A DNA stretch of 64,000 nt from an uncultured Elusimicrobia bacterium (GTDB lineage: Bacteria; Elusimicrobiota; Elusimicrobia; 2-01-FULL-59-12): NCBI GenBank assembly GCA_963702895.1, contig OY969767.1, positions 800,001 to 864,000 on the forward strand, given 5' to 3'. A program made the translations under genes and the position numbers. Shown piece after piece: positions 7,954-49,759 of the stretch. The number at the start of each line of letters is the position of its first letter. The stretch's first letter is position 1. A model generated the notes under the pieces. The model ran no database searches and was not told the DNA's origin. It saw only the letters and a list, made by a program, of their open reading frames with translations.

Positions 7954-9341
7954 GAGTTCTTGTCAAATGTACTGGAAATAGGGCAACGCCCCTTTCGTTG
8001 AATGTCTCTTAGGCCGCGACCTCCAGCTTCTCTCTTTCCACAAATAGTACTTCAACCAATTCCGGCTTTGCGATCGGCTTCCAGAACTGCGCTAAACGCT
8101 CAATGACCTTGTAGACGAATGCCACGCCTGTTCGGGATTTCTGGAACCGGCGCACGACTCGCGTCCGCAACCGCACTCCCGCGAAGACCGACTCAATCGG
8201 ATTGCTCGTCTTCAAATGGACCCAGTGCTCCTTCGGAAAGTCGAAGTACCTCAGCAACGTGTCATGATCCTTGCGCACACAAGCCGCAGCCTTCGGATAG
8301 CGAATTTCAAGATCCTCAGCCAACAAGGCCAACTGGTTCTCCGCGTCTTCGCGGCGCTCCGCCTGATAGGCCACCCGCAGGCGATTGAGGACTTCATCCT
8401 GCTTAGCCTTCGGCACTTTATCCACGACGTTGCGCATCTTGTGCTTCCAACACCGTTGATCCTTCGCCGAGGGATACACCTCTGCCACCGCCTCCCAGAG
8501 CCCTCCGATCCCGTCGCCGATGACCAACAGCGGAGCAGGCATACCGCGCTCCGCGACCCCTCTCCAGATTTCCTTCCAGGAATCCCGGCTCTCCCGGTAG
8601 CCTTCCATCAGCGCGATCAGTTCCTTCTGGCCTTTCGCGTTGACGCCCACCAGAACCAGAAGCGCTGTGTTCTCTTTTTCCAGCCCCGCTTTTAAATACA
8701 CGCCGTCTGCCCAGACATAGGCGTAACGCGTCTCCGATAGGTCCCGGCGACTGAACGTAGCCAGGTCCGACTGAAACTTCGCCGATAGACGCAGGATCGT
8801 GCTGGCTGATAAGGTGGCTCCATCCCCGATCAGTGCTCGCAACGCCGGCTCAAAGTCCCGACTCGAGAGTCCCTCCAGGTACAGCCGCCGGAATAACTCC
8901 TCGACCCCTTCCGTCCGCCGCTGGTAGGGCCGCAAGATGCTCGACTCAAACTCGCCTCCGTCCACCTGGGGCACCGATAGCTTCAGCCCCGCCCCCAACA
9001 CCGTCACCTTCCGCTCCCGCGTTCCGTTCCGATAGCCTTTCTCCAGATTCTTCGCCCGTTCATAGCGCCGACGCTCTAAATACATCGTCACTTCTTCTTC
9101 CAGGGCCTCCACCAGCATCTTGCGCGCTCCTTCACGGGCCAGATAATCCACCATGCTCTCGCCTTTGTGCTGAGTCCCTTTCTCGTTTACAATGGTTTCC
9201 ATAACGGCGTCTCCTTTTCGTTTATTGTCCGCTCGAACGGACAGGTTTGTGTGTTTCAACGAAAGGGTACGCCGTTTCTATTTCCTAAGGCAAATCCTTC
9301 CTTGCCTTAAAACCTATTTCCAGCACTTTTGATGGTAACTC
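7954..9341 (-). mobile_element. IS256-family insertion sequence, copy 1 (1388 bp)
   Basis: Imperfect TIRs GAGTTCTTGTCAAATGTACTGGAAATAG / GAGTTACCATCAAAAGTGCTGGAAATAG; 9-bp target duplication TTTAGGGGG (7945-7953, 9342-9350). Confidence 0.95.
8009..9202 (-). CDS. IS256 (Mutator-family) DDE transposase
   Basis: YVWADGVY, IGDG, QRCWKHK and TSNPIES motifs; ATG at 9202 with AGGAG RBS (ORF extends to 9259). Confidence 0.95.
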   Translation of the reverse strand: METIVNEKGTQHKGESMVDYLAREGARKMLVEALEEEVTMYLERRRYERAKNLEKGYRNGTRERKVTVLGAGLKLSVPQVDGGEFESSILRPYQRRTEGVEELFRRLYLEGLSSRDFEPALRALIGDGATLSASTILRLSAKFQSDLATFSRRDLSETRYAYVWADGVYLKAGLEKENTALLVLVGVNAKGQKELIALMEGYRESRDSWKEIWRGVAERGMPAPLLVIGDGIGGLWEAVAEVYPSAKDQRCWKHKMRNVVDKVPKAKQDEVLNRLRVAYQAERREDAENQLALLAEDLEIRYPKAAACVRKDHDTLLRYFDFPKEHWVHLKTSNPIESVFAGVRLRTRVVRRFQKSRTGVAFVYKVIERLAQFWKPIAKPELVEVLFVEREKLEVAA

Positions 9342-9447
9342 TTTAGGGGGGCTGTATGAGGCCCACAGACGCGATGGGACCTTTGGGACGAGATTTATGG
9401 CCATAAGACGGATGGATTGCACGGGAAGAAAGTGACATCCTCATGGT

Positions 9448-9861
9448 ATGAACACGCCATCCTCCAAGACCCATCAGGCCACGATCGTCGTGATTGACGA
9501 TGATTTCGGCATCCGAGAATCCGTCAAAGACATGCTCGCCCTCGAAAACTGGGACTGCGTGATGGCGGAATCCGGCAAAGAAGGCCTGGAACTCATCAAA
9601 GCCCTGAAACCGGAGCTGGTCGTGGTGGACCTTCAGCTTCCGGACATGTCCGGCTTTCATCTTTGCAAGAGGATTAAGCGTGACCCCGCGATGCGCGAGA
9701 CGCCGATTGTCATCATCACAGGGCGCTTTACGGAGCTGCAGGACAAAATTCAGGGATTTGAGTTTGGCGCCGATGAATACTTTTATAAGCCGTTTGAACC
9801 GGCCTTCTTTATCTCGAAAATACGGAGCATTTTGAGGGGGCTGGCGACGAAGGCGGCGTAG
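9448..9861 (+). CDS. Single-domain response regulator (receiver)
   Basis: VIDDD, VVDLQLPDMSG, ITG, GADEYFYKPF. Confidence 0.9.
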   Translation: MNTPSSKTHQATIVVIDDDFGIRESVKDMLALENWDCVMAESGKEGLELIKALKPELVVVDLQLPDMSGFHLCKRIKRDPAMRETPIVIITGRFTELQDKIQGFEFGADEYFYKPFEPAFFISKIRSILRGLATKAA

Positions 9862-10030
9862 GGAACGTCAACGGCAAACGGCGTCCCCGCGCTGAGTCTC
9901 TGCGGGGACAGTCCCGCGACCTTTAAGAAATAGGATGCGGGACGACAATCGAAAATAGACAATAGACAATTTCTGTGGTGGGGGAAAAAGACGCTTCATT
10001 GCCTGGGACAGGCTATCAAGCGTCTTTTTT
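9860..10030. repeat. Cassette-boundary repeat copy A, interrupted by a double-hairpin element at 9884-9942
   Basis: First 24 bp identical to 11534-11557, then AAATAGA heptamers, GTGGTGGGGGAAAA and an AAAAGACGC...GCGTCTTTT hairpin. Confidence 0.8.
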
Positions 10031-10060
10031 ATGGGTGCATGGCCATCCAATCAAATGAAA

Positions 10061-10888
10061 TCAGGAAGGAGGCTGCTCCGGCAGCAGTTTCTTGAAGACG
10101 GCGGGAAAGTCTTTGAGCCACCGCAGATCGGAGGGATCTTCCAGAAACGGCCGCAAATCCTTGGTCAATGAGCCGGTGTCCAGCGCTGTGACTTTTTTTT
10201 CGATCTTGGCGAGGACCTCTTGCCAGCTCCGACACGTGATGTTTTGTTTCTTTGATTGCGCCAGCCCATTCTGGAAATAAGCAAGATTGCCGGCGACACG
10301 CTGGGAAAGAAACCAGATCAGATCATAGTAATCCCTCCCGCGTTCATAAGGCCTCAGAAGGATCGCCAAGGCCTTCCCCGCAAAGAGCGTGGGCAGGTCG
10401 TACTTGAGGACCGGAAACAACTCGTTCATGCGGGCGACAAAATGGGTTTCCACCACGCCGCGCGCGGGCGGCCGGACATCGACTTCCAGCTTGATGGAGA
10501 GCTTTTGATTAGGAGGAAGTGTCAGTCCGACCCTTTCGGGGAGGCCGCCGATACGAATAAAGGCTTTCTGGACGACCTTATCTTCCGAGAAGTTGCCGCT
10601 CACATCATACCCCAGCCGGGCGAGGTCTTTGAGGGCGGAGGCGTGCAAGTCCCTCATCGAGTAGCGGGCGTTTTTCTTAAGGAGTGAAAAATCGAGATCT
10701 TCCGAGTAGCGTCTGAGCTGATGGCAAATCCGCAGGCAGGTCCCCCCCTGAAAGGCGAGCGAAGCCCCCGTGGGGGTATTGAACACAGAGCGCAGGACCA
10801 CCAGTTGCAGGTATTCGCGGCAAAAGTTCCACTTTTCCAGCTCGGAGGCTGGGGCAGCGGCCTTCAGCAGATCAAGCAGTTTTTGCAT
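10061..10888 (-). CDS. abiEii: AbiEii-family nucleotidyltransferase toxin (type IV TA)
   Basis: FQGGTCLR..HQLRRYSEDLDFS, KLEVD, AGKALA and RGRDYYDL motifs; ATG 10888 with AAGGA RBS. Confidence 0.9.
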   Translation of the reverse strand: MQKLLDLLKAAAPASELEKWNFCREYLQLVVLRSVFNTPTGASLAFQGGTCLRICHQLRRYSEDLDFSLLKKNARYSMRDLHASALKDLARLGYDVSGNFSEDKVVQKAFIRIGGLPERVGLTLPPNQKLSIKLEVDVRPPARGVVETHFVARMNELFPVLKYDLPTLFAGKALAILLRPYERGRDYYDLIWFLSQRVAGNLAYFQNGLAQSKKQNITCRSWQEVLAKIEKKVTALDTGSLTKDLRPFLEDPSDLRWLKDFPAVFKKLLPEQPPS

Positions 10889-11465
10889 AATCCTTGAGGC
10901 TTTCCCAAAGGGCCAAGACCCGACTCCCAGGATAGGGTTTGACGAGCTTGTCTCCTCGTTTCCAATCCAGGCCCTTGAGGTTTTGGAAGCGCGCTTCTCT
11001 CCAGAAGGATTTTTCCGTTTTGAGCGAATGACCCCGGAGATAGAAGTAGTCGAGGAGCGCTTTTTCCGGTTCAGCGAGGAGCCGGCTCGAATCATAGCCG
11101 AAAAAGAGGCCCGTTTGAATATGATGAAAGTGAAAACGTCCCCAGGGTGTTTGAAAAGACCGTGGAGGGCGCGTGGTGACGAGTGTTGTTTCAAAAGGAA
11201 CATCGGGCACCAGACCATGCTGGTTCAGGGCGGTCTCCATGCTGATGTAGGCAGGAGCATAGAGCGCGAGGATTCTCTCTGGTAATGAGCAGTGCCGTCC
11301 GGGAAAGGCATACACCTCGCGCCGGATTCTCTGAAGATGGCCGGCTTTGACCCAGCGGTGAAGGTTGAGCCGCAGGCCTTGAGCGTTTTCCCGGGTCGTG
11401 AGGAGCGCCTCTCGGAAGGAAAAGGCCGATTTCTTCATCAAGGCTTCAAACGCGCTGTATTTCAT
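10872..11465 (-). CDS. abiEi: AbiEi-family antitoxin (wHTH plus C-terminal domain)
   Basis: LHRWVKAGHLQRIRREVY, AYISMETALNQHGLVP, AEPEKALLDYFY; overlaps the toxin start. Confidence 0.85.
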   Translation of the reverse strand: MKYSAFEALMKKSAFSFREALLTTRENAQGLRLNLHRWVKAGHLQRIRREVYAFPGRHCSLPERILALYAPAYISMETALNQHGLVPDVPFETTLVTTRPPRSFQTPWGRFHFHHIQTGLFFGYDSSRLLAEPEKALLDYFYLRGHSLKTEKSFWREARFQNLKGLDWKRGDKLVKPYPGSRVLALWESLKDYAKTA

Positions 11466-11467
11466 AA

Positions 11468-11501
11468 TTACGTTAATTATCATAAATGATAATTAACGTA
11501 A
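11468..11501. promoter_or_regulatory. Perfect 16-bp inverted repeat, putative AbiEi autorepression operator
   Basis: TTACGTTAATTATCAT-AA-ATGATAATTAACGTAA directly upstream of the antitoxin ATG. Confidence 0.8.
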
Positions 11502-11533
11502 ATGGAAGGGGGGATGCGCGACGGGGGCGGAGC

Positions 11534-11643
11534 AGGGAACGTCAACGGCAAACGGCGATAATAGAAAATAGAAAATAGACCATTTGAGTGGTGGGGGAAA
11601 AGACGCTGGGTTGCCTGCGGAAGGCGAAAAGGCGTCTTTTTTA
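11534..11643. repeat. Cassette-boundary repeat copy B (uninterrupted)
   Basis: Homologous to 9860-10030; abuts the stop codon of the four-helix-bundle gene. Confidence 0.8.
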
Positions 11644-11994
11644 TTTCTGTGTCTGAATGAGGCGCGTGATCATTTTGCCAATCAAATCGAGGTCTCCTTT
11701 CAGTCGCGGATAGTCCTCTGCACGAATCAGGCCATGCTGAACGGCGAATTGCAGGTGTGTGACGCATTCATTGGTTGATCCTCGTGACACCCAAAAGAAT
11801 TGTTTCCGATCGCCGATGTGCCACCGGCCAGACCCCTCAGCCAAATTTGCAGGAATCGACATGACCGCTCTGCGGAATTGGTCGCAGAGGACGGGGTTTC
11901 GACTTCGGGGTGCCTTTTCGAGGGATTGGAGAATTTCCGTAGCAAATGACATGCTTTTCTTGTAAACGCGCATCTCCTCAAACAAAAAGCCCAT
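11641..11994 (-). CDS. Four-helix-bundle protein (23S rRNA IVP/Avd-like family)
   Basis: FEEMRVYKKS, DQFRRAVMSIPANLAEGSGR, SRGSTNEC signature. Confidence 0.9.
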   Translation of the reverse strand: MGFLFEEMRVYKKSMSFATEILQSLEKAPRSRNPVLCDQFRRAVMSIPANLAEGSGRWHIGDRKQFFWVSRGSTNECVTHLQFAVQHGLIRAEDYPRLKGDLDLIGKMITRLIQTQK

Positions 11995-12042
11995 ACATCC
12001 CTTAGATGCAAAAACCTCGAAAATATTCACGATTCATTTAAC

Positions 12043-12377
12043 ACGGCATACGGCGAAAATAGACAATAGAAAATAGTGGTTCCAGGCTTTTTTACGGCAT
12101 CCGGCGCGCGGGTTGATCTTTCAGGGTCGCTGTATGCGTAGAGAAAACGTCAAAGGCAAACGGCGAAAATAGAGAATAGAAAATAGTAGTTCCAGGCTTT
12201 TTTTCCGGCATCCGGCGCGCGGGTTGATCTTTCAGGGTCGCTGTATGCGTAGAGAAAACGTCAAAGGCAAACGGCGAAAATAGAGAATAGAAAATAGTAG
12301 TTCCAGGCTTTTTTTCCGGCATCCGGCGCTATTGTCTATTTTCTATTTTCGCCGTATGCCGTAAAAAAAGCCTGGAA
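12043..12377. repeat. About 2.5 tandem copies of a 110-111-bp unit enclosed by a 21-bp perfect inverted repeat
   Basis: Units start at 12051, 12161 and 12272. ACGGCATACGGCGAAAATAGA (12043-12063) is the reverse complement of 12342-12362. Confidence 0.9.
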
Positions 12378-12475
12378 GAGGGAGGGGGTTTCTTCCAGGC
12401 TAAAGTGGGTATTCAATTGTATTTCTGAGCTCTGAGTTTAAAACTCTGAGAGAACAGATCAGAACTCAGAGAGCC

Positions 12476-12625
12476 CTACTGGTAACACGGCGGCGCTTCT
12501 TCCATCCTTCGGCTGATGACTTCGCGAATGCCGCAGCGCGTACAAATCAAGTCATAGCCTTCCAAGAGTATGTCCAAAACCGCCATGGGACTGCCGCATC
12601 GACGACAAACGCCGTAGGTCTGCAT
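12476..12625 (-). CDS. Small (49 aa) Zn-ribbon protein, absent from the ORF track
   Basis: Manual translation MQTYGVCRRCGSPMAVLDILLEGYDLICTRCGIREVISRRMEEAPPCYQ; two CxxC; AAGGGGG RBS. Confidence 0.65.
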   Translation of the reverse strand: MQTYGVCRRCGSPMAVLDILLEGYDLICTRCGIREVISRRMEEAPPCYQ

Positions 12626-12827
12626 AACGCCCCCTTGCGTAATGCTTGCCATCACTCCAAGGGTAGCGACTTTGTGTTACGCCAGTGTTACTCGAATGTA
12701 AAAGTCGTGTAACGTAAGAGTTGTTAACCTTCCTCCGTCGAGGATCGGGAGGGGTCGCCGTTACAAGGGCCCTCGGGTGGGCCGGTCTTGACCCCGAGAT
12801 CCGTGCCCAGGAAGGCGAAGTCTGAGG

Positions 12828-13232
12828 CTAGCGTCGAGCGGAAATCTTCTTCAGTGTGTCCCAGCTGTCCAAAACGTCCTGAGACGTGCGCAGGGAGCGT
12901 TTCTTGAGGAGCTTCCGGTGCTCGCGTGTGTACCCGAAGACGTGGGGGTGTCGGAGGGTGAGTTTGCGGATGAGGGTCCTGATCACATGGTCGATCGTGA
13001 AACGGCCCTTTTCTTTGGCGAGTTGGGCATGGAAAACAACCTGCAAGAGCAGGTCGCCCAGCTCTTCTTCCATGTTGCGGTAATCCTTTTTGTGGACGGA
13101 CTGCTTGAATTCCCGGGCCTCCGCGAAGAGGTATTTCAATAGACTGGCGTGGGTTTGTTTGCGGTCCCACGGGCAGCCCTTGGGGGACCTGAGCCGGGCC
13201 ATCACCTGAACCAGTTTTTGAAAGGAAGTCAT
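12828..13232 (-). CDS. mazG: MazG-family nucleotide pyrophosphohydrolase (single domain)
   Basis: RLRSPKGCPWDRKQT, EEELGDLLLQVVFH, RHPHVFG. Confidence 0.85.
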   Translation of the reverse strand: MTSFQKLVQVMARLRSPKGCPWDRKQTHASLLKYLFAEAREFKQSVHKKDYRNMEEELGDLLLQVVFHAQLAKEKGRFTIDHVIRTLIRKLTLRHPHVFGYTREHRKLLKKRSLRTSQDVLDSWDTLKKISARR

Positions 13233-13293
13233 AAGCTGTTCACGAAGAGTGCGAATTGTATAAAATCTTCCATGTTTTACCGGGTGTTCTTGT

Positions 13294-13685: not shown

Positions 13686-13715
13686 CTGGAGCACTTTTAA
13701 AACACTGGACTTCGC

Positions 13716-14192: not shown

Positions 14193-14263
14193 ATAGAATG
14201 ATTCCAGTTCGTGCGGAGGGATGAGTGAGCAGCTTGGGCCTGCTCTCAAATAATGTATTGTGC

Positions 14264-14350
14264 GGAGAGATGGCCGAGCGGTTGAAGGCGCCGCTCTCGA
14301 AAAGCGGTAGGGGTGCAAGCTCCTCGTGGGTTCGAATCCCACTCTCTCCG
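14264..14350 (+). tRNA. tRNA-Ser(CGA)
   Basis: GGAGAGA/TCTCTCC acceptor, CCGCT-CTCGAAA-AGCGG, long variable arm, GTTCGAATC; CCA not encoded. Confidence 0.95.
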
Positions 14351-17001: not shown

Positions 17002-17187
17002 CTGAGACCATCGTGCGGGCGCGTGACACACATCCGTAGCGTCCGCCTGACTTGAGGTGGGAGTCGCCGGGTGTGTGGCGCTCCCCGCCACTCCATCTCA
17101 AGACAGCATGCGAGGATCCCTCCGCTGGAGGGGCCTGTTGTAGGTAGTTTGTATAATGAGCACCGATTTCGGTTTTGGAATGTTGCT

Positions 17188-17277
17188 GGGGGTGTAGCTC
17201 AGCTGGGAGAGCCTCGCCAGACTACAGGCGAGCCCGCCGGCTGTCTGGCGGGGGTCGCCGCGGCGACAGGTCGCCGG
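17188..17277 (+). pseudogene. Truncated chimeric tRNA-Ala copy with double-hairpin insert
   Basis: GGGGGTGTAGCTCAGCTGGGAGAGC, then hairpin pair, GTCGCCGCGGCGAC and AGGTCGCCGG; no T-loop or 3' acceptor strand. Confidence 0.75.
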
Positions 17278-17313
17278 CGTAGGGTGTTTCAGGAGCAATT
17301 TTTGGGAGTTGGT

Positions 17314-17602
17314 GGGGGTGTAGCTCAGCATATGAAAGAAGGCGCGTTGCTGGGGGTGTAGCTCAGCTGGGAGAGCGCATCGTTCGCAACGATGAGGTCG
17401 CCGGTTCGATCCCGGTCACCTCCAGCAACGCGCTTCATTTGGGAGAGCCTCGCCAGACTACGGCGAGCCCGCCGGCTGTCTGGCGGGGGTCGCCGCGGCG
17501 ACAGGTCGAGGGTTCGTCCCGCATTCTTAGACTCTTACGATGCGGGACAGTCCCAACCCATAAGGATGGAGGAAGGTGGGACGAGCCCCTTCACCTCCAC
17601 CA
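17314..17602 (+). pseudogene. Split outer tRNA-Ala-like copy surrounding the intact tRNA-Ala
   Basis: Pieces 17314-17329, 17440-17448, 17488-17516 and 17584-17602 give a cloverleaf with G3:U70 and CCA but a collapsed anticodon loop. Confidence 0.75.
17352..17424 (+). tRNA. tRNA-Ala(CGC)
   Basis: GGGGGTG/CACCTCC acceptor with G3:U70, CATCG-TTCGCAA-CGATG, GGTTCGATCC; CCA not encoded. Confidence 0.95.
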
Positions 17603-17629
17603 ACTCCCCGTCTATTTCCAAATTCATCT

Positions 17630-19381
17630 ATGAGCTATCAAGTTCTTGCGCGTAAATATCGGCCTCAAACTTTTGAGGAAATCGTTGGCCAGGCGCACGT
17701 GGCCACGACGCTTGCCAATGCGCTCAAAAACCAGAAGGTCGCCCATGCCTACCTCTTCTCCGGGCCGCGCGGCGTCGGCAAGACCACCACCGCCAGGATC
17801 CTTGCGAAGGCCCTGAACTGCGTCAAAGGCCCAACCCCCGTTCCCTGCAATCAATGCGATTCCTGTCAGCGCATCGCGCAGGGGCAGGAGATCGTGGATG
17901 TGCTTGAAATTGATGCGGCCTCCAACCGCGGCATTGAGGAAATCCGCGAGCTCCGCGAGAACGTCCGGTACGCGCCGGCCCGCAGCCGGTTTAAGGTTTA
18001 CATCGTGGACGAGGCGCATCAGATCACCCATGACGCCTTCAACGCTTTTTTGAAAACGCTGGAGGAGCCGCCGGAGCACGCCATTTTTGTGCTGGCGACC
18101 ACGGAGTACCAGAAAATCCCCGCCACGATCCTCTCGCGCTGCCAGCTTTTTCGGTTCAAACGGGTCTCCGCAGAAGATATTTCCAAACACCTCGAAAAAA
18201 TCCTGGGCCGTGAAAAAATCACGTATGAAAGCGCTGCCCTTTCCCGGCTGGGACGTGCCGCCGGAGGGTCCCTGCGCGACGCGTTAAGCCTCCTGGATCA
18301 GGCGCTCGCGTATGCTTCGGGCGCGCTCTCGGCCAAACAGGTGGAAATGCTCTTGGGTTTTTTGCCGGAGGAATTTTTGGTGGGTTTTGTGTCCGCCCTT
18401 CTTGAGCGCAAGCCAGCGGGGATCCTCGAATGGGTGAAGCAGCTGGTGGAGGAGGGATGGGATATCCCTCAGTTTGTGCGAGACTTCAGGGAATTCTTAC
18501 GGCAGTCTTTGGTCGATCAACTTGGATCGTCCGACGCCCCACGCTCGACGTCAGACGTCGCACGCCGCACGTCGGAGGAGCTCTTGATCGCGGGGCGTTC
18601 CGTTTCTCTTCCGGAAGTTCTCCACATGATCAAAGTGATGGGGCAGTGCGTGGACGAAATGCGTTGGAACGACAACCCGCGCCTCGTCCTGGAACTCTAC
18701 AGCCTGCGACTGACGCAGCCGTTTGTGGACGCCGGTGTGTTGCTCAAGAGAATTGAAGAACTTGAGGAGAAGAGTGGCGTATCGGAGTATCGGAGTACCG
18801 GAGTATCGGAGTCACAGCCCAGTAGCGTAACGGAGTACCAGGGTACCGGCGTCCCGGGGTCACAGCCCAATAACGTAACGGAGTATCGGAGTGCCGGAGT
18901 ATCGGAGTCACGCCAAGGCCGTGACCCCGTGACCCCGTTACGCCGATACCCCGATACTGCTGTTACCCCGACACCCCGACACCCCGACACTCCGTTACAG
19001 GCCTCCGCCTCTGAATTGTGGAAGCGCCTGCTGGCTGAACTCTGGAAGAAGCCGACGGTCGCTTCCCATATGGAACGAGCGGCGCTCAAATCCGCGACGG
19101 ACAAAGTGTGGGTCATCGAGTTTGCGGACGCTTTTGCGCTGTCGACCATGGAGCGAAACAAAGTGTTTTTAACCGAGACGCTCGCGGTCCTGGCGGGACA
19201 GGCTCTTGAGCTGCGTCTTGTCCAAGGGGCTCCGGACCAGAGAGAACGGGATGACGCGACGGTAGTCGTGCCGTCTCCCGCTTCGGAAGGGCGTCCGGTT
19301 GTGGAGCAGAACGCTCATGTCCAAAAGGTTCTGGGTGTTTTTAAGGGGCGCGTTCGGGAGGAGGAGCGGCCTGCATCATGA
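17630..19381 (+). CDS. dnaX: DNA polymerase III subunit gamma/tau
   Basis: MSYQVLARKYRPQTF, GPRGVGKTT, EIDAASN, DEAH, SRCQ. Confidence 0.97.
   Translation: MSYQVLARKYRPQTFEEIVGQAHVATTLANALKNQKVAHAYLFSGPRGVGKTTTARILAKALNCVKGPTPVPCNQCDSCQRIAQGQEIVDVLEIDAASNRGIEEIRELRENVRYAPARSRFKVYIVDEAHQITHDAFNAFLKTLEEPPEHAIFVLATTEYQKIPATILSRCQLFRFKRVSAEDISKHLEKILGREKITYESAALSRLGRAAGGSLRDALSLLDQALAYASGALSAKQVEMLLGFLPEEFLVGFVSALLERKPAGILEWVKQLVEEGWDIPQFVRDFREFLRQSLVDQLGSSDAPRSTSDVARRTSEELLIAGRSVSLPEVLHMIKVMGQCVDEMRWNDNPRLVLELYSLRLTQPFVDAGVLLKRIEELEEKSGVSEYRSTGVSESQPSSVTEYQGTGVPGSQPNNVTEYRSAGVSESRQGRDPVTPLRRYPDTAVTPTPRHPDTPLQASASELWKRLLAELWKKPTVASHMERAALKSATDKVWVIEFADAFALSTMERNKVFLTETLAVLAGQALELRLVQGAPDQRERDDATVVVPSPASEGRPVVEQNAHVQKVLGVFKGRVREEERPAS
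18779..18998. repeat. In-frame octamer-based repeat (three 48-nt units plus inverted octamers) in the dnaX linker
   Basis: GTATCGGA-type 8-mers followed by CCGATACY/CCGACACC 8-mers. Confidence 0.8.
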
Positions 19382-26454: not shown

Positions 26455-26782
26455 GCCGCCTCCGCCGCGCGCCTCCAGCTGGGCCTCTAAGACAGCCCAT
26501 CCCTGCTTTGCTTTCGATGGTGGGCCTGAAGGGCTTCCCAAATAATCCGATAAGCCACCCCTGACGTCATCCCCCGCGGCCGTCAGCGGGGGATCCATCG
26601 ACGGCCTTGGTGTAGGTGTTGGTGGCGGGATCGAAGACGAAGGGTTTCACTTATTGGGTGAAAAATGAGGGGTCAACACAGGAGGCTTTGAAAAAGGGTG
26701 CAGCGCGTGATTTTACAGCGACGCGCAGAGGCAATAAAATACCTCGCAAGCCAGAGTGGAATCTGAACTGCGAGGTGCTTTT

Positions 26783-28102
26783 ATGTTACTGAAGAACTTG
26801 GACGTATACAAGGTCTCGACGACGGATCAAGCGGTGACGAGTTTTGCAGGGCTGCCGTTGTTGTTGGGGACGGCACGGAGCCTGGGGTTGGAGGAGCGGC
26901 TCAATGCGCTGCCGGTGAAGGAGCGGGCGCGGGGATACGATCCTGCCGAGAGTATTTTGGGGTTGATGGGATCGATCCAGGCGGGCGGGGAAGCGCTCGA
27001 AGACATCGGGCTGCTGCAAGGGGACGAGGGGATACGGCGCTTGCTGGGGGATTTTCCGGCAGCGAACACGTTGGGCGAATTTCTTCGGCGTTTTGGGCGC
27101 AAGACGATTCATGGGTTGGGATGGGTCCAGCTCAAGACGGCGGCGAAGGTGATCCGGGCCTGCGAGCTGTCTATTGTGACGATCGATATCGACGCTTATT
27201 TTTTGGAGTCACAGAAGGAAGGCGTCTTGATGAATTACGATGGACTGGAAGGGTATTGTCCGGTGATGGTCAGTTGCGCGGAGCTGAAGATGCCGCTGGC
27301 CGGGGCGTTTCGGGCAGGCAATGCGAGCCCGATGGCGAACCTGGCGAGTTTGTTGCGGCGGGTCTTGCGGCAGTTTTCCGGTTTGCGGATGAGGGCGCGC
27401 TCAGACAGCGCGGGGTATCAGGCGAAGGTGGTTCGGGAATTGGATCGGGCCGGGGTGGACTTCACCATCACGGCGCGCAAGGATGATGCCGTTTTGGAAG
27501 CGATTCGGTCGATTCCGGAGAAGGCCTGGAAGAAGTACAACTCGCCGGTCTATCCCCATAAGGGATCTGAGATTGCCGAGACGGTGCATGCTTTTGGGGA
27601 GGCGGACAAGGATATCGCCGCATTTCGGTTGGTCGTGGTGCGCTGGCAGCAGGAGCCGCAAGGCGAGCTTTTCGATAAGGAGCACTTTGAATACCATGCG
27701 GTGGCGACGCGGTTCACATGGGAACCGGGATTGGTTCTGCAATTTCACCGTAACCGGCAGGATGGGTCGGAGAACGTGAACCGGGAGATGAAGAGCGAGG
27801 GTGGGTTTGGATTATCCAAGCTGCCGTGCCGGGATTTTATGGCCAATGCCGCCTATTTCCAGATCGCGATGTTGGCGTCGGTGGTCACGGCAGCCTTCAA
27901 GCATTTGGTTCTGCCGAAAGCCTGGCAGAGCTTCACGATCCAGACGCTGCGGCACCGGCTGATCCGCTTGGCCGGGACAGTGTGCCGGAAGTCGCGCTAT
28001 CTGTGGTTAAAGATTCCGGAAAACTACCCGTTCCGGCGGGTTTTTGAAGAGGCGCGCTATGGCGTGTTGGGGCTGTCTGTGGTGATCGCGTCTACCGGTT
28101 GA
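26783..28102 (+). mobile_element. IS1380-family transposase (element ends not confidently defined)
   Basis: TIDIDA, RARSDSAGY, HRNRQDGSENVNREMK, NAAYFQI, TLRHRLIRLAG; G-rich coding strand unlike its neighbours. Confidence 0.88.
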
Positions 28103-28366
28103 TTGACGGGACGGCGACACCGAAGGCATCGACGGAGGGAAAGAACCGAACAGAGGGTCGGAGCGGCGAAAACTGCCGCAAAAGGCCGACAATTGATCAG
28201 ACGGTAGTCTGAACCGCCTCCGAGGGAAGCCAAGGGTACCCGAAGCAGGCGAGAAACCTGGTCGCCGCGGCGACCGAGCGGTGAAAAATTGGGACCTATG
28301 TGTGGCCTACGTCAAAACGCAGCGCTGCAGAAAATTACCGGAGCTTTTGGGAGGGCTTCCTGCTGT

Positions 28367-43316: not shown

Positions 43317-43322
43317 CAGGGA

Positions 43323-45083
43323 GTGGCTGGAATGAAAGACATCCTGATTCGTATCGGCGGTGAAGGCGGCGAAGGGGTCATCAGCTGCGGCGAGATGCTG
43401 ACCACGGCCCTTGCCCGCTCTTCCTATGAGGTGTACACCTTCCGTACCTACCCGGCAGAAATCAAAGGCGGTCCGGCTATGTTCCAGGTCCGCGCCAGCG
43501 ACGGTCCCGTCCTTTCACAGGGCCAGATGGCGGATCTGCTCGTGGCGTTCAATGAAGAAGCCTGGCAGCTTCACGGCAACACCCTCCGACCGGATGGCCT
43601 TCTGGTCTATGATCCGGCCCTCTCGAAACCAGAAGGCGCCTTTGAATCTTACCCTGTGCCACTGGACGACATCACGGTCAAGATCGTCAAATCCAAGCTT
43701 GGGAAAAACGTCGTGGCCCTGGGAGCATGCGCCAAAATCTTAGGGATGTCGATGGATCTGCTCCAAGAGATGGTGAAAGAGCGTTTTGCTAAAAAGGGTG
43801 AAGCGGTGCTGGGGAAGAACCTGGAAGTGCTCAGAGCGGGCTATGACTTCATTGAGAAGCACCCCTTCAAAAAGGCCCTCCCGAAGTTTGATGCGACGAA
43901 GTCGCCCATCAAGCGGATCGTGATGTCGGGCAACGAGGCGCTTTCGATTGGAGCGATTTCCGCTGGTTGCCGTTATTTCGGCGGCTACCCTATTACGCCC
44001 GCCTCGGATATCCTGGAATTCATGGATAAGGACCTTCCCAAATTTGGTGGATGCGTGGTCCAGACCGAAGACGAGATTTCAGCGCTTGCCTCCGTCATTG
44101 GGGCTTCCTATACAGGTAAAAAAGCGATGACCGCGACCTCCGGCCCGGGTCTTGCCCTTATGGTGGAGCTCTTAGGACTGTCCGCCATGTCCGAGATCCC
44201 CTGCGTGGTCGTCGATGCCCAGCGCGCGGGCCCCAGCACCGGCATGCCGACCAAGAACGAACAGGGCGATCTGAATCTGGCGGTCTATGGTGCTCATGGG
44301 GATGCGCCTCGTATTGTGCTTGCTCCGGGAGATGTCGAAGAAAGTCTCTATTACATGATCCAGGCCTTTAACCTCTCAGAAAAATACCAATGTCCCGTGG
44401 TCTATCTTACGGATCAGTCGCTGGCGCACCGTACCCAGACATTTCCATGGCCTGATTTCAAGAAGGTCCCGCTCCTCAACCGAGAGCTTCCAACGGACAA
44501 GGACCTCCGTGAAGGCTATGTTCGTTTTAAGATGACCGAAACCGGCATCTCACCCATGGCCCTGCCTGGGATGGAAGGCGGGTGCTACGCCGCGACAGGT
44601 CTTGAGCATTCTGAAAAAGGCTCCCCCAACTTTACTCCGAAGATGCACGCTCAGATGTCAGCCAAACGCGCCAAAAAGATTGAAGTGTGCTCCAGGGAAA
44701 AAGGGTTCACGGCCCGCTTCGGCGCCCCCCAGGCCAAGATCGGTATCGTGGGGTGGGGCTCGACCCAAGGGGCCCTCCGTGAAGGCGTCAACCTGGCGGC
44801 GAAGGAGGGGATCCCGGTCGCGCACCTTCAGGTGAAGATGATCTATCCATTTCCCGAGGCGGACCTCCAGGAGTTCTTAAGCTCCGTGGAGCAGGTCATC
44901 GTCGCGGAACTGAACTTTAGCGGCCAGTACAATCAACTGTTGCGCTCCCATTTCCTCGTCCCCACGATCGCCCTGACCAAGTGCGAGGGTTTACCTTTTT
45001 ATGCCGAAGAAGTTCTGGACAAAATTAAGGCTGTGGCCTCCGGATCCGTGAAGCCTCTGGCTGGAGCGGTCCTGGCGCGATAG
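43323..45083 (+). CDS. 2-oxoacid:ferredoxin oxidoreductase alpha subunit, copy 2
   Basis: GGEGGEG, YPITPAS, EDEI, QRAGPSTGMPT. Confidence 0.93.
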   Translation: MAGMKDILIRIGGEGGEGVISCGEMLTTALARSSYEVYTFRTYPAEIKGGPAMFQVRASDGPVLSQGQMADLLVAFNEEAWQLHGNTLRPDGLLVYDPALSKPEGAFESYPVPLDDITVKIVKSKLGKNVVALGACAKILGMSMDLLQEMVKERFAKKGEAVLGKNLEVLRAGYDFIEKHPFKKALPKFDATKSPIKRIVMSGNEALSIGAISAGCRYFGGYPITPASDILEFMDKDLPKFGGCVVQTEDEISALASVIGASYTGKKAMTATSGPGLALMVELLGLSAMSEIPCVVVDAQRAGPSTGMPTKNEQGDLNLAVYGAHGDAPRIVLAPGDVEESLYYMIQAFNLSEKYQCPVVYLTDQSLAHRTQTFPWPDFKKVPLLNRELPTDKDLREGYVRFKMTETGISPMALPGMEGGCYAATGLEHSEKGSPNFTPKMHAQMSAKRAKKIEVCSREKGFTARFGAPQAKIGIVGWGSTQGALREGVNLAAKEGIPVAHLQVKMIYPFPEADLQEFLSSVEQVIVAELNFSGQYNQLLRSHFLVPTIALTKCEGLPFYAEEVLDKIKAVASGSVKPLAGAVLAR

Positions 45084-45091
45084 GAGAGCCG

Positions 45092-45934
45092 ATGTCCCAT
45101 ACCACAACAGACTATAAATCGGAAGTCAAAATCACCTGGTGCCCAGGGTGTGGCGATTTTGCCGTTCTGAACGCCCTCTATCAGGCACTGGTCACGATGG
45201 ATTTGGACCCGAAGAACGTCGTAGTGGTCTCCGGGATCGGCTGTTCCGGGCGGCTTCCTATCTTTGTGAATTCTTACGGTTTCCATGGTGTCCATGGCCG
45301 CGTGCTTCCCACGGCCATGGGTGTGAAGATCGGCAATCCCAAGCTCACCGTCATTGCGGTTGGCGGGGATGGCGATGGGTTGGCCATCGGCGGCGGTCAC
45401 TTCCCGCACGCCGCGCGACGCAATATCGACATCACCTACATCATGCTTGACAACAACATCTATGGCCTGACCAAGGGTCAAGCCTCCCCGACCACCCTTC
45501 AGAGCTTCCAGGGGAAGTCGAGTCCTTATGGAGTCTCAGAAGAAAACCTGAACCCGATTGCACTGGCCCTGGCCTATGACGTATCGTATGTCGCACGGGG
45601 CTATTCCGGGCAGCTCAAGCATTTGTCGGATCTCATGGTTGATGCGGTCAATCACAAAGGGTTTTCATTCGTTCATACATTGTCCCCGTGTGTGGTATTT
45701 AACGACACCTATAAGTATTATGGGAAGAAGGTTACGCCGATCGCGCCCTATGAGAATTCATCCAGCAAAATGAGAGCGTTGCAATTGTGGCAGGACAAAG
45801 AGCATATTTTTCTCGGAACGTTCTACAAGGACGAGACACGCCAAACTTTCAACGAGCGTCTTCGTGATATCATTGGACAATTCCCTCGCGATGATGAAAA
45901 ATACTTTAGGGAGCTCCTGAACCGGTACGCCTAA
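45092..45934 (+). CDS. 2-oxoacid:ferredoxin oxidoreductase beta subunit, copy 2
   Basis: WCPGCGD, SGIGCS, GGDGD, YGLTKGQ. Confidence 0.93.
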   Translation: MSHTTTDYKSEVKITWCPGCGDFAVLNALYQALVTMDLDPKNVVVVSGIGCSGRLPIFVNSYGFHGVHGRVLPTAMGVKIGNPKLTVIAVGGDGDGLAIGGGHFPHAARRNIDITYIMLDNNIYGLTKGQASPTTLQSFQGKSSPYGVSEENLNPIALALAYDVSYVARGYSGQLKHLSDLMVDAVNHKGFSFVHTLSPCVVFNDTYKYYGKKVTPIAPYENSSSKMRALQLWQDKEHIFLGTFYKDETRQTFNERLRDIIGQFPRDDEKYFRELLNRYA

Positions 45935-46794
45935 TGATCAATCGCTTACGAACATCTCTTCCGAACGTTTTCATACTCTCCGTTCTACTCTCTATTCTCC
46001 CGCGACCTCTTCCCGCGGAATCCGACGCCGCGGTGCTGATCTTGACAGCCCATGGTGATCGGGCGTGGAAAAATAACGTGAAGCAGGCTGTGAAGGCGGC
46101 CCAACTGGCTTATCCCACGCGCATCTACTATGGGGCGGCGGACACCACGGCGGGCCGCGCTCAGCTGCAGGAGGTCCTTGAGACTTTGGAAAGCGGCGGG
46201 GCCAATACGATCTATGTGGTGCCCCTGGTCGTGTCCAGTTATTCCGAGATTGTCCGCCAGTGGAAGTATCTTCTCGGGGTCGACGTTCAACCCGGCTTCA
46301 TGAATAATCCACTGTTCCCGTTGCGTAAGCGTTCGGCGATACGATTTCTCGAGCCTCTTAATGATTCAGCCGTGGTCGTGGAAATCCTTCTCGATCGCGC
46401 GCATGAAATCAGCGCATCACCGGACAAGGAGAGCCTCATTCTCGTCTCGCGCGGCGCCCGAGACCACTCGGACAATGACCGCTGGCTGCAGATTTTACGG
46501 AGCCTTTCCGGCCGTTTGAAAGAACGCGGAGGGTATAAGACGGTGGAAGCGGTCACCCTTCGCGATGATGCCCCGCCCGAGACCCGGCAGAGAGCTGTGG
46601 AATACCTTCGTGGGCGTGTGCGTGCTGCCGAGCAGGCAGGCACCCGGGCGCTGGTCGTGACCCTCCTTCTCTCGCAGGGGGGAATTGAACACCGCATCGG
46701 ACTTGAACTGCGAGGTTTGACCTACGCTTTCAATACCAAAGCGCTCCTCCCTGATGCGCGTATCTCCGAGTGGATCCGCAGTCAAATCCCGTAA
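45934..46794 (+). CDS. Secreted CbiX/SirB chelatase-like protein
   Basis: Signal peptide; LILTAHG, IYVVPL.VSS.S, TLRDDAP; two-lobed chelatase-like layout. Confidence 0.55.
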   Translation: MINRLRTSLPNVFILSVLLSILPRPLPAESDAAVLILTAHGDRAWKNNVKQAVKAAQLAYPTRIYYGAADTTAGRAQLQEVLETLESGGANTIYVVPLVVSSYSEIVRQWKYLLGVDVQPGFMNNPLFPLRKRSAIRFLEPLNDSAVVVEILLDRAHEISASPDKESLILVSRGARDHSDNDRWLQILRSLSGRLKERGGYKTVEAVTLRDDAPPETRQRAVEYLRGRVRAAEQAGTRALVVTLLLSQGGIEHRIGLELRGLTYAFNTKALLPDARISEWIRSQIP

Positions 46795-46813
46795 TTGCAC
46801 AAGGACGACAAAA

Positions 46814-47374
46814 GTGAATTATTGTAAGACCGTCTGGAATGATTCGGCCGCGTTGCTCAAGGGTCTCGCCTTGACGTTCCGATACATGTTTCAGCCGAAG
46901 GTCACCCTCCAATACCCGAAACAAAAAGCTACCATGGCCGAGCGTTTTCGGGGGATGCTCACCTTCCATATCGACGAGTGCATCGCCTGTGACCTGTGTG
47001 TCCGGGCCTGTCCCTCCAATTGCATTGCCTTGGAGAGCGTGCGCAACGAGGCCGGTAAAAAAGTGATCCAGAATTACACGATTGATTTCGGCAAGTGCAA
47101 CTGGTGCCGGCTTTGCGAAGAAGCTTGCCCCACCAACCCCAAGTCGGTCCATCACACCCTGGCGTATGAAGTGATGTTTACCTCTCGAGATGATTTCAAA
47201 ATCACCTGGCTCAAGGATGCCCAGGGGAGGCCGCTCGTGCCGGTCAATGCCGCCGGCAAGCCCATGGAACCTTGGACGGACGTGCCTGAAAAGCATCTTT
47301 CAGTCGGTGTTGGAGCCCACCAAGCTCCTCCTTCCATCAAAGCGGCCGACGCTTTCATTTCGCCTGCTCACTAA
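46814..47374 (+). CDS. NuoI-like 2x[4Fe-4S] ferredoxin subunit
   Basis: VTLQYP..RFRG, CIACDLCVRACP, CNWCRLCEEACP. Confidence 0.85.
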   Translation: MNYCKTVWNDSAALLKGLALTFRYMFQPKVTLQYPKQKATMAERFRGMLTFHIDECIACDLCVRACPSNCIALESVRNEAGKKVIQNYTIDFGKCNWCRLCEEACPTNPKSVHHTLAYEVMFTSRDDFKITWLKDAQGRPLVPVNAAGKPMEPWTDVPEKHLSVGVGAHQAPPSIKAADAFISPAH

Positions 47375-47381
47375 TCAAGAC

Positions 47382-48323
47382 ATGAAATATCGTCCTCTTG
47401 GTTCCACGGGCCTGCAAGTCTCCGAGATCGGTTTCGGAGCCTGGGCCATTGGCGGAAATCAATATGGAAACAGCTATGGTCCTGTGGAGGATGAAGAATC
47501 CCTCCGTGCGATCGCACAGGCGGTTGACGCGGGCTGTAATTTCTTTGATACCGCAGATTGTTACGGCCACGGCCATAGCGAGGAACTGCTTGGCCAGGCC
47601 CTCCGAGGCCGTCGACGCGATGTGATTCTTGCGACCAAGGGAGGGAGCGATTTTTACCATCAACCGCCACGGCTTAATTTTTCAGAAGCCCATCTCAACT
47701 TGGCGGTGGAGCAAAGCCTCAAGCGCCTGAAGACGGACTTCCTTGATCTCTACCAGCTGCACAACCCTCCTTTTAGCCTTATTGAAGGAGGGCGGATCTT
47801 TGAACCGCTCGAAAAGCTCAAAGAGCAGGGGAAGATACGTTTCTACGGCATTTCGATTCACGACCCTCAAGAGGGGCTCCTCGCCATGAAGATCGGCAAA
47901 CCCTCGACCCTACAGGTCACGTATAACGTTTTGCGAAGAGTCGCCGCGGAAGAGTTATTCCCAAGAGCGGTGGCATCTGGTGTTGGCATCATTGCCCGGG
48001 AGCCCCTGGCCAATGGGTTTTTGACCGGCAAATACACAAAGGATTCGGTCTTTCCCGTAGGAGATATTCGCCACCAGTGGCCATCGAAGTATCAAGCGCA
48101 GATTGTTGCTCAGGCGGAATCATTCAAGAAAACACTTGACCAGAACCTGACAACTCTTGCCCAGGCTGCCATACGATTTGTGCTGTCAAAACAAGCTGTT
48201 TCTGTTGTGATCCCGGGGTGCAAAACAGTCCAGCAAGTGGAGGAAAACTTCAGGTCTGCGCAATCGGAGTTACCATCAAAAGTGCTGGAAATAGGTTTTA
48301 AGGCAAGGAAGGATTTGCCTTAG
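47382..48323 (+). CDS. Aldo/keto reductase; last 18 codons supplied by IS256
   Basis: VSEIGFGAW, FDTADCYG, DLYQLH, VIPG. Confidence 0.9.
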   Translation: MKYRPLGSTGLQVSEIGFGAWAIGGNQYGNSYGPVEDEESLRAIAQAVDAGCNFFDTADCYGHGHSEELLGQALRGRRRDVILATKGGSDFYHQPPRLNFSEAHLNLAVEQSLKRLKTDFLDLYQLHNPPFSLIEGGRIFEPLEKLKEQGKIRFYGISIHDPQEGLLAMKIGKPSTLQVTYNVLRRVAAEELFPRAVASGVGIIAREPLANGFLTGKYTKDSVFPVGDIRHQWPSKYQAQIVAQAESFKKTLDQNLTTLAQAAIRFVLSKQAVSVVIPGCKTVQQVEENFRSAQSELPSKVLEIGFKARKDLP

Positions 48324-49654
48324 GAAATAGAAACGGCGTACCCTTTCGTTGAAACACACAAACCTGTCCGTTCGAGCGGACAATAAACGAAAAGGAGACG
48401 CCGTTATGGAAACCATTGTAAACGAGAAAGGGACTCAGCACAAAGGCGAGAGCATGGTGGATTATCTGGCCCGTGAAGGAGCGCGCAAGATGCTGGTGGA
48501 GGCCCTGGAAGAAGAAGTGACGATGTATTTAGAGCGTCGGCGCTATGAACGGGCGAAGAATCTGGAGAAAGGCTATCGGAACGGAACGCGGGAGCGGAAG
48601 GTGACGGTGTTGGGGGCGGGGCTGAAGCTATCGGTGCCCCAGGTGGACGGAGGCGAGTTTGAGTCGAGCATCTTGCGGCCCTACCAGCGGCGGACGGAAG
48701 GGGTCGAGGAGTTATTCCGGCGGCTGTACCTGGAGGGACTCTCGAGTCGGGACTTTGAGCCGGCGTTGCGAGCACTGATCGGGGATGGAGCCACCTTATC
48801 AGCCAGCACGATCCTGCGTCTATCGGCGAAGTTTCAGTCGGACCTGGCTACGTTCAGTCGCCGGGACCTATCGGAGACGCGTTACGCCTATGTCTGGGCA
48901 GACGGCGTGTATTTAAAAGCGGGGCTGGAAAAAGAGAACACAGCGCTTCTGGTTCTGGTGGGCGTCAACGCGAAAGGCCAGAAGGAACTGATCGCGCTGA
49001 TGGAAGGCTACCGGGAGAGCCGGGATTCCTGGAAGGAAATCTGGAGAGGGGTCGCGGAGCGCGGTATGCCTGCTCCGCTGTTGGTCATCGGCGACGGGAT
49101 CGGAGGGCTCTGGGAGGCGGTGGCAGAGGTGTATCCCTCGGCGAAGGATCAACGGTGTTGGAAGCACAAGATGCGCAACGTCGTGGATAAAGTGCCGAAG
49201 GCTAAGCAGGATGAAGTCCTCAATCGCCTGCGGGTGGCCTATCAGGCGGAGCGCCGCGAAGACGCGGAGAACCAGTTGGCCTTGTTGGCTGAGGATCTTG
49301 AAATTCGCTATCCGAAGGCTGCGGCTTGTGTGCGCAAGGATCATGACACGTTGCTGAGGTACTTCGACTTTCCGAAGGAGCACTGGGTCCATTTGAAGAC
49401 GAGCAATCCGATTGAGTCGGTCTTCGCGGGAGTGCGGTTGCGGACGCGAGTCGTGCGCCGGTTCCAGAAATCCCGAACAGGCGTGGCATTCGTCTACAAG
49501 GTCATTGAGCGTTTAGCGCAGTTCTGGAAGCCGATCGCAAAGCCGGAATTGGTTGAAGTACTATTTGTGGAAAGAGAGAAGCTGGAGGTCGCGGCCTAAG
49601 AGACATTCAACGAAAGGGGCGTTGCCCTATTTCCAGTACATTTGACAAGAACTC
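48267..49654 (+). mobile_element. IS256-family insertion sequence, copy 2 (1388 bp)
   Basis: Same TIRs and identical transposase protein to copy 1; 8-bp target duplication CGCAATCG (48259-48266, 49655-49662). Confidence 0.95.
48406..49599 (+). CDS. IS256 transposase
   Basis: Translation identical to the copy at 8009-9202. Confidence 0.95.
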   Translation: METIVNEKGTQHKGESMVDYLAREGARKMLVEALEEEVTMYLERRRYERAKNLEKGYRNGTRERKVTVLGAGLKLSVPQVDGGEFESSILRPYQRRTEGVEELFRRLYLEGLSSRDFEPALRALIGDGATLSASTILRLSAKFQSDLATFSRRDLSETRYAYVWADGVYLKAGLEKENTALLVLVGVNAKGQKELIALMEGYRESRDSWKEIWRGVAERGMPAPLLVIGDGIGGLWEAVAEVYPSAKDQRCWKHKMRNVVDKVPKAKQDEVLNRLRVAYQAERREDAENQLALLAEDLEIRYPKAAACVRKDHDTLLRYFDFPKEHWVHLKTSNPIESVFAGVRLRTRVVRRFQKSRTGVAFVYKVIERLAQFWKPIAKPELVEVLFVEREKLEVAA

Positions 49655-49759
49655 CGCAATCGCCTTCCGAGGTCTCTCCCTAGCCATAGGTCCTTTGACC
49701 TTGAAAATATGGCCTTCCCGACCATGGCTTTCTCCTTCTGGAACCCGTAGAATTTAGCG

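What the first reader, a model, noticed from the sequence alone, without database searches (positions are those of the whole stretch)
7954..49714. Both IS256 copies inserted at the same distance from the same promoter motif - possible guided targeting
Seen: the target duplications differ (TTTAGGGGG, 9 bp; CGCAATCG, 8 bp) and the IS orientations are opposite, yet in both cases exactly 23 nt separate the downstream TSD end (9350; 49662) from ATRGGWCCTTTG-N10-TATGGCC (9374; 49686). Known: IS256 elements make 8-9-bp duplications and are generally regarded as having low target specificity. Inference: insertion is positioned by a host factor bound to the motif, or by the DNA bend it makes, sparing the downstream promoter. 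Only two cases are visible here.
Basis: partly seen in the sequence, partly recalled or inferred. Interest (0 to 1): 0.75.

Follow-up and report, generated by a model that had tools for sequence, protein, structure and literature searches.

The report
Transposon homing to one regulator's promoters
A jumping gene of a family thought to land at random inserts almost only a fixed short distance upstream of one rare class of promoter, probably by docking on the host regulator bound there, which leaves the promoter intact.

Summary
Confirmed and extended. The genome holds 9 copies of this IS256-family element. All 9 end 30-32 nt upstream of the same rare motif (about 28 sites in 2.7 Mb), in either orientation, with unrelated 7-9-bp duplications. 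In metagenomes, 9 of 11 relatives with two flanks do the same: 31-34 nt, or 20-22 nt (one helical turn closer) in one subclade.

The motif is an activator-type promoter: two tandem 18-bp dyads, a fixed -10 box, no -35 consensus, often heading giant genes. It matches the DosR/DevR layout. The genome encodes a DosR-like regulator with the same base-reading residues, and its presence tracks the motif across the phylum.

I found no RNA guide or pseudo-end. Targeting is shown; the regulator's identity and a transposase-regulator contact are inferred. A second Mutator-like element sits at the same promoters (2 of 2 copies). Known precedent: ISLre2/TnGBS at sigma-A promoters, where IS256 was called random. 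The scan had not noted this element before; it noted an analogous habit in archaeal IS6.

The parts
7954..9341 (-). IS256-family element, copy 1 (1388 bp; imperfect terminal inverted repeats, about 24 bp conserved); left end faces the promoter
8009..9202 (-). Transposase of copy 1, 397 aa; inferred DDE triad D166/D230/E337 and C(2)H at C251/H254
   Evidence: NCBIfam NF033543 301.7 bits, cut-off 150 (identical copy); invariant columns
7945..7953 (+). 9-bp target duplication, far copy
9342..9350 (+). 9-bp target duplication, promoter-side copy
9360..9365 (+). Upstream half-site (motif positions -14 to -9)
9374..9413 (+). Tandem dyad boxes 1 (9374-9391) and 2 (9396-9413), inferred activator sites centred near -65.5 and -43.5
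9436..9441 (+). -10-like hexamer at the fixed position (motif 63-68)
9448..9861 (+). Downstream gene: single-domain response regulator receiver
48267..49654 (+). IS256-family element, copy 2; right end faces the promoter; lies in the last codons of the upstream aldo-keto reductase gene
48406..49599 (+). Transposase of copy 2 (397 aa)
48259..48266 (+). 8-bp target duplication, far copy
49655..49662 (+). 8-bp target duplication, promoter-side copy
49686..49725 (+). Tandem dyad boxes 1 (49686-49703) and 2 (49708-49725)
49748..49753 (+). -10 hexamer TAGAAT
49760..50341 (+). Downstream 193-aa gene of unknown family; the promoter of a homologue (54% over 113 residues) is hit by relative L106
2620..2701 (+). 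Unoccupied promoter of the same class (half-site 2620-2625, boxes 2634-2673, -10 at 2696-2701); a homologue's promoter is hit by relative L111
2676..7853 (+). Giant 1725-codon reading frame with FBPase_3-like stretches, driven by that promoter class

Best explanation
This element belongs to a distinct clade of IS256-family transposases that targets one class of activator-dependent promoter in one bacterial family (probably Elusimicrobiota). SHOWN: insertion is positional, with the duplication centred 25.5-28 nt upstream of box 1 (about -101), or 16-17 nt in one subclade; either orientation occurs; the cut site has no consensus; the promoter is left whole. INFERRED (strong): the motif is a pair of tandem binding boxes for an orphan NarL/DosR-type response regulator (G000:713646-714380) that activates sigma-70 transcription of giant, probably secreted proteins. 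INFERRED (moderate): the transposase, loaded with the circular copy-out/paste-in intermediate, docks on the promoter-bound regulator or on the regulator-polymerase complex and integrates at arm's length upstream. This gives the element a safe landing site.
For: 9 of 9 genome copies at 30-32 nt. With a matrix from 19 empty sites only, 8 rank 4-27 of 5.4 million; the ninth scores 2.8 but still peaks at offset 31. 0 of 32 copies of eight other repeat families in the same genome score above 3.7 within 300 nt. 9 of 11 two-flank relatives score 20.7-48.7. The offset follows the tree: the monophyletic subclade uses 20-22, one helical turn less. Two copies landed at the normal offset inside the end of another element, so the local sequence does not matter; one landed in coding sequence. 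Each part of the promoter is conserved separately: box 1 at 9 of 9 sites, box 2 at 8 of 9, the -10 more weakly. Dev-box layout: 18-bp boxes, G5 and C7 essential, tandem at -42.5/-63.5 (PMC3177182 passages); here G5 is 0.97 and C7 0.94 conserved. The regulator's best PDB hit is DevR, E 3.6e-36, with K179/K182/N183 equivalents kept. The motif pattern is found in 30 of 226 genomes with the regulator and 3 of 174 without (read by hand).
Against: No binding data for regulator-motif or regulator-transposase. No extra targeting domain is visible; the clade differs mainly in a shorter C-terminal end modelled as a helix, at modest confidence (mean pLDDT 66). Motif-regulator co-occurrence is among kin, and most regulator-bearing genomes (196 of 226) show no match to this family-tuned pattern; the reversed control pattern hit 8 genomes. 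Within the family, G004 and G007 carry the regulator but have 1 and 0 matches, while G001 and G002 (73% complete) have many matches and no regulator found. 2 of 11 two-flank and 3 of 3 one-flank relatives show no strong motif; 6 of the 11 have non-matching duplications and may be assembly chimeras. Box 2 is poor at one occupied site (score -13.2).
Confidence: 0.6

Rival explanations
1. No direct protein contact: the bound activator (or activator plus RNA polymerase) bends and exposes DNA upstream, and the transposase prefers that shape.
For: DosR dimers distort DNA by about 40 degrees (PMC13486717 passage). ISCth4 integration is sensitive to target topology (PMC7780238 passage). The one-turn shift and 1-2 nt slack fit a phased DNA surface.
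Against: Other IS families in the same genome ignore these sites (0 of 32). Any bent promoter should then be used, yet only this class is hit. The offset is inherited with the transposase lineage.
Confidence: 0.18
2. The transposase reads the box sequence itself through one of its DNA-binding domains and cuts at a fixed distance.
For: Needs no host factor. The five bases just inside the terminal repeat of this element resemble the start of box 1, at a distance matching the 6-8-bp circle spacer.
Against: Targets match repeat positions 5-24 worse than random DNA (mean -52.6 versus -40.2), and positions 25 onward are not conserved in the clade. 645 genome positions have a box 1 as good as the weakest occupied one, yet occupied sites keep box 2 (8 of 9) up to 70 bp from the cut.
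Confidence: 0.14
3. The targeting is real but the motif is bound by a different host protein, or the tether is an RNA polymerase subunit as proposed for TnGBS.
For: Motif and -10 box are locked in spacing, so they cannot be fully separated. Only the GerE/LuxR family was surveyed for candidates.
Against: General sigma-70 promoters are not used. At one site the position-63 hexamer is degenerate and a better one lies 6 nt further, yet the offset from box 1 is unchanged. Of two GerE-type regulators over cut-off only one has the DosR-type helix.
Confidence: 0.07
4. Random insertion filtered by selection, or an RNA guide encoded by the element.
For: Insertions upstream of promoters are harmless. Non-coding ends of 139 and 56 nt exist.
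Against: Chance per insertion is about 3e-5; for the 7 copies outside the window about 3e-32. Selection does not give a 3-nt window. Shared words between element ends and flanks (5-10 nt) are like random (mean 7.2, 95th percentile 9, measured for the 5' end). No Rfam match near its cut-off.
Confidence: 0.01

Closest known systems
TnGBS/ISLre2 (p-MULT 3) and ISKra4 group (p-MULT 4); PMC3942029 (abstract, passages and the Discussion section read)
   Same: Mutator-type DDE transposases that insert at a fixed distance upstream of promoters; proposed tether to the transcription machinery; near-symmetric ends allow both orientations.
   Different: Those insert 15-17 bp upstream of the -35 of general sigma-A promoters. 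This clade scores as IS256 proper (p-MULT 1, reported there as apparently random), targets a single regulon lacking a -35 consensus, and inserts near -101 or -91.
IS256 family / ISCth4 (PDB 6XG8; PMC7780238, passages read)
   Same: Organisation, terminal repeats, 7-9-bp duplications, catalytic motifs; profile hit E 2.3e-39.
   Different: No promoter-class targeting is described in the passages read.
DosR/DevR regulon promoters (PMC3177182 passages; PMC13486717 abstract and passages)
   Same: Tandem in-phase 18-bp dyads, essential G5 and C7, proximal box near -43, NarL-type regulator with the same three base-reading residues.
   Different: Box period is 22 rather than 21 bp; there is an extra upstream half-site; different phylum and targets (giant proteins); binding not tested here.
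Ty3 (TFIIIB/TFIIIC-tethered integration), as cited in PMC3942029; Tn5053-type res hunters and H-NS-directed insertion (recalled, no call)
   Same: Insertion positioned by a DNA-bound host protein.
   Different: Different enzymes and host factors; none involves a signal-dependent bacterial activator, as far as I recall.

Membership tests
IS256 family (p-MULT 1) | Transposase above family cut-off | tested here: met
   NF033543 283-304 bits versus cut-off 150 for 4 of 4 clade members tested; PF00872 247.9 bits
IS256 family (p-MULT 1) | DDE triad with C/D(2)H motif | tested here: met
   D166, D230, E337, C251, H254 invariant in 18 sequences; roles assigned by motif
IS256 family (p-MULT 1) | Single ORF, terminal inverted repeats, about 8-9-bp duplication | tested here: met
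   Duplications 8 bp (5 copies), 9 bp (3), 7 bp (1); 18 ends for 9 copies
IS256 family (p-MULT 1) | Circular copy-out/paste-in intermediate | not testable with these tools
   Only low-depth contigs were available; no joints seen
IS256 family (p-MULT 1) | Apparently random target choice (descriptive trait) | tested here: not met
   9 of 9 at one motif; this is the variant trait
ISLre2/TnGBS/ISKra4 promoter-targeting groups | Transposase belongs to these groups | tested here: not met
   Only IS256, ISH6 and IS1249 models hit at E 0.001, the last two far below cut-off
ISLre2/TnGBS/ISKra4 promoter-targeting groups | Insertion 15-17 bp upstream of a sigma-A -35 box | tested here: not met
   No -35 consensus in the column profile; element end lies 92-94 nt before the -10 position
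ISLre2/TnGBS/ISKra4 promoter-targeting groups | Aspartate signature between domains N1 and N2 | not tested
   No reference sequences were fetched
DosR/DevR-type promoter | Two or more tandem in-phase 18-bp dyads with conserved G5 and C7, proximal box near -42.5 | tested here: met
   start sites are inferred from the -10 position
DosR/DevR-type promoter | NarL-type regulator with K179/K182/N183 equivalents and phospho-acceptor Asp | tested here: met
   (K182, K185, N186, D55 invariant in 26 orthologues)
DosR/DevR-type promoter | Regulator binds the boxes and activates transcription | not testable with these tools
   needs footprint or expression data
RNA-guided insertion (bridge/seek RNA type) | Element-encoded RNA complementary to targets | tested here: not met

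The most novel reading that the evidence does not exclude
The transposase binds a specific two-component response regulator directly. Insertion would then be aimed at one regulon and gated by that regulator's phosphorylation, that is by the cell's signalling or life-cycle state. A small change in the transposase moves the landing site by one helical turn, and a second, distant Mutator-type element has converged on the same promoters. This would be a natural, regulator-tethered minimal integrase in bacteria.
Probability: 0.4. Interest if true: 0.9.

Novelty: new variant of a known kind. Interest (0 to 1): 0.8.

Why it matters
It runs against the reported randomness of IS256-family insertion for a whole clade, and extends promoter targeting from general sigma-A promoters to the promoters of one regulon. 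The proposal that Mutator-type transposases are tethered by transcription proteins is still a model in PMC3942029. Here it becomes testable with two small soluble proteins and a 100-bp DNA, with a natural one-turn variant to map the arm. It also reveals a candidate master regulator and promoter code for giant genes in an uncultured lineage, and hints at a compact integrase that could be retargeted through a DNA-binding partner.

Tried and rejected
Reads: 4 of 5 listed runs were laid, all low-depth contigs; no usable new junctions; no RNA holder listed. The clade transposase was not found in 40 relatives or 400 phylum genomes searched, and its end pattern was not found in 11 order genomes; most are fragmented assemblies. 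Viral contigs: 15 end-pattern matches, none with the transposase; none for the second element. Pseudo-end and RNA-guide models rejected. My first idea that two of the nine loci were a segmental duplication was wrong: they share a second element, not host genes. Autoregulation: no motif near the regulator gene in the family loci (best 6.8). Distant IS256 relatives (38-42% identity; 42 copies from five multi-copy genomes, out of 80 loci) show no match (best 5.0). This control is weak because those hosts are other phyla, and I did not search them for other motifs. The one distant relative of the second element (35%) shows no motif. Literature: searches listed nothing describing this clade, promoter or regulator; subscription papers are mostly missing, and the supplementary tables of PMC3942029, which list individual sites, were not read.
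Full report
OBSERVATION. The two window elements (7954-9341 minus, 48267-49654 plus) are identical 1388-bp copies with 9-bp and 8-bp duplications as described. It has no other match in the window at up to 3 mismatches; 0.01 are expected. The transposase is IS256 proper: NF033543 at 301.7 bits against a cut-off of 150, with ISH6 and IS1249 far below theirs.

ALL COPIES IN THE GENOME. The genome (2,724,539 bp, one contig, 57% G+C) holds 9 full copies: 5 identical, 1 at 89% and 3 at 87%. There are exactly 18 ends, so no fragments. All 9 have the motif on one side, starting 30, 30, 31, 31, 31, 31, 31, 32 and 32 nt from the element end, or 21-24 nt from the duplication. The left end faces the motif in 4 and the right end in 5. 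Duplications are 7-9 bp with no consensus. Leave-one-out matrices rank the held-out site 1-137 among 5.4 million positions. A matrix from 19 empty sites ranks 8 occupied sites 4-27; the ninth scores only 2.8 but its best offset is still 31. The empty sites were first found with a matrix from the occupied ones, so leave-one-out is the cleaner test. With about 28 sites and a 3-nt window, chance is 3e-5 per insertion. Of 32 copies of eight other repeat families in this genome, none scores above 3.7 within 300 nt. One copy lies in the last codons of an aldo-keto reductase gene.

RELATIVES. Of 80 metagenome loci returned, 17 (66-93% identity) form with the genome's variants one clade with 100% support and a long stem. 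About 70 protein clusters at 63% identity or more belong to it, with a gap down to 49%. Eleven loci have two usable flanks, and 9 carry the motif with scores 20.7-48.7: offsets 20, 20, 20, 21, 21, 21, 22 in one monophyletic subclade, and 31 and 34 outside it. The other two (L107, L114) have only weak matches near 30-33. Three one-flank loci show no strong match, and three lack flanks. Only 5 of the 11 have matching duplications; the rest may be assembly chimeras. Duplication centres lie 25.5-28 nt upstream of box 1 in the genome and 16-17 nt in the subclade, a difference of about one helical turn. Promoters of homologous genes are hit independently in different organisms: L106 at the window 49760 gene, L110 and L105 at the gene after copy 2632611, and L111 at the window 2676 gene, whose promoter at 2634 is empty here.

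THE MOTIF. Refinement gives 31 hits against 2 in the reversed genome. A -10 hexamer (TAnnnT) appears at fixed positions 63-68, outside the training columns, and there is no -35 consensus. The core reads as two imperfect 18-bp dyads, ATRGGNC-N4-GNCCYAT, 22 bp apart, centred near -65.5 and -43.5 if position 63 is -12, with a further half-site at -14 to -9. Of the 28 sites used, 13 head reading frames of 1200 codons or more; the genome has 43 such frames (itself counts 12, missing one whose first start codon lies upstream of the motif). The 11 of these scanned against Pfam are mostly mosaics with scattered enzyme, HEAT/TPR and HTH domains. The motif recurs in 9 of 10 family genomes with no control hits there. 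The host is probably Elusimicrobiota: the top Atlas cluster for the regulator is mostly that phylum, an earlier scan note says the same, and long genes are reported in that phylum (bioRxiv 2023.11.21.568195, passages).

CANDIDATE HOST FACTOR. The layout recalled DosR/DevR, which I then checked. Dev boxes are 18 bp, tandem and in phase, with G5 and C7 essential, and one promoter has them at -42.5 and -63.5 (PMC3177182, passages). Here G5 and C7 are among the most conserved columns (0.97, 0.94). The genome has two GerE-type regulators over cut-off. One, with no kinase beside it (G000:713646-714380), has DevR as best PDB hit (E 3.6e-36) and keeps the three residues that read the box in DosR (PMC13486717, passage); the other does not. 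Orthologues are 73-93% identical in 8 of 10 family genomes; the two misses are 73% complete. Across 400 phylum genomes the pattern occurs in 30 of 226 with the orthologue and 3 of 174 without (read by hand). The reversed control hit 8 genomes, kin are not independent, and most hits in one exception (G368) are the end of a repeated element. Against: G004 and G007 have the regulator but 1 and 0 matches. Binding is inferred, not shown.

A SECOND ELEMENT. Two occupied loci looked duplicated but instead share another IS: a 375-aa zinc-ribbon DDE protein with weak Mutator, ISH6 and IS256 hits below cut-off. Both of its copies end 8 nt before box 1 with 7-bp duplications, between the half-site and box 1, and its terminal repeat restores the half-site. 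The IS256 variants then inserted into that repeat at 31 and 32 nt. So the nine insertions are at nine distinct loci, local sequence does not set the site, and a second family appears to use the same promoters (n = 2 only). This element was found after the control and is not among its 32 copies.

MECHANISM. Shown: positional, orientation-free, sequence-independent insertion that spares the promoter, with an offset inherited along the transposase tree. A pseudo-end model was attractive because the distances match the 6-8-bp circle spacer (PMC7780238, passages), but targets resemble the terminal repeat less than random DNA does. No guide-like complementarity or RNA family was found. Reading box 1 alone would allow 645 sites, yet box 2 is kept at 8 of 9, which points to the assembled protein-DNA complex. 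I favour docking on the bound regulator or the regulator-polymerase complex (0.6) over bend capture (0.18), direct readout (0.14) and another factor (0.07). The clade's clearest difference from relatives is a shorter C-terminus lacking their conserved tail motif, modelled as a helix (mean pLDDT 66). It differs between the two subclades and is a candidate arm; this is speculation.

COMPARISON. PMC3942029 (abstract, passages and Discussion read; supplements not read) reports fixed-distance insertion upstream of sigma-A promoters for ISLre2/TnGBS and some ISKra4, proposes a polymerase tether, and states that IS256 insertions appeared random. The present clade works like those elements but is not one of them, and its target is a single regulon. 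Searches listed no description of it. The scan's index had no look-alike sequence and one analogous, unchecked note on archaeal IS6.

VERDICT. Real, strong and replicated targeting; a new variant of a known kind; interest 0.8.

Noticed in passing
G000:2241868-2244545 and 2504150-2506830 (L307, L308, L309, L311; coordinates approximate, each interrupted by an IS256 copy): Second, unclassified Mutator-like IS with an N-terminal zinc ribbon; both copies end 8 nt before box 1 of the same promoter class; about 14 close protein relatives exist.
   Followed up: partly
window 2610-2625; G000:1417220: Two empty promoters carry a 14-16-nt stretch like the second element's right end before the half-site; possibly scars, or a native motif that the element mimics.
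   Followed up: no
G000:713646-714380 (L218:961-1695): Orphan DosR-like regulator found in 226 of 400 phylum genomes, confined to certain families; candidate master regulator of giant genes.
   Followed up: partly
window 9436-9450 and 49748-49762: The start codon lies 6 nt after the -10 hexamer at both promoters, suggesting leaderless transcripts.
   Followed up: no
window 26537-28351: IS1380-family element, one of 7 identical copies with 7-bp duplications, not linked to the motif.
   Followed up: partly
window 9844-10032, 11518-11644, 12043-12377: Family of intergenic direct and inverted repeats with purine-rich heptamer runs, including two near-identical 111-nt units.
   Followed up: no
window 17182-17508: tRNA-Ala (17351-17426) with duplicated 5-prime fragments upstream and a 47-nt repeat, like an integration scar.
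   Followed up: no
window 18765-18988: Runs of 8-bp tandem repeats inside or opposite reading frame 17576-19381.
   Followed up: no
L271-L276, L278, L279 (G368): A repeated element in another family begins right after a four-base A-rich target and starts with a sequence matching the tandem-box pattern.
   Followed up: partly
L207:195-8069: A 2625-aa giant protein contains sigma-70 region 4, histidine phosphatase and aldo-keto reductase domains together.
   Followed up: no
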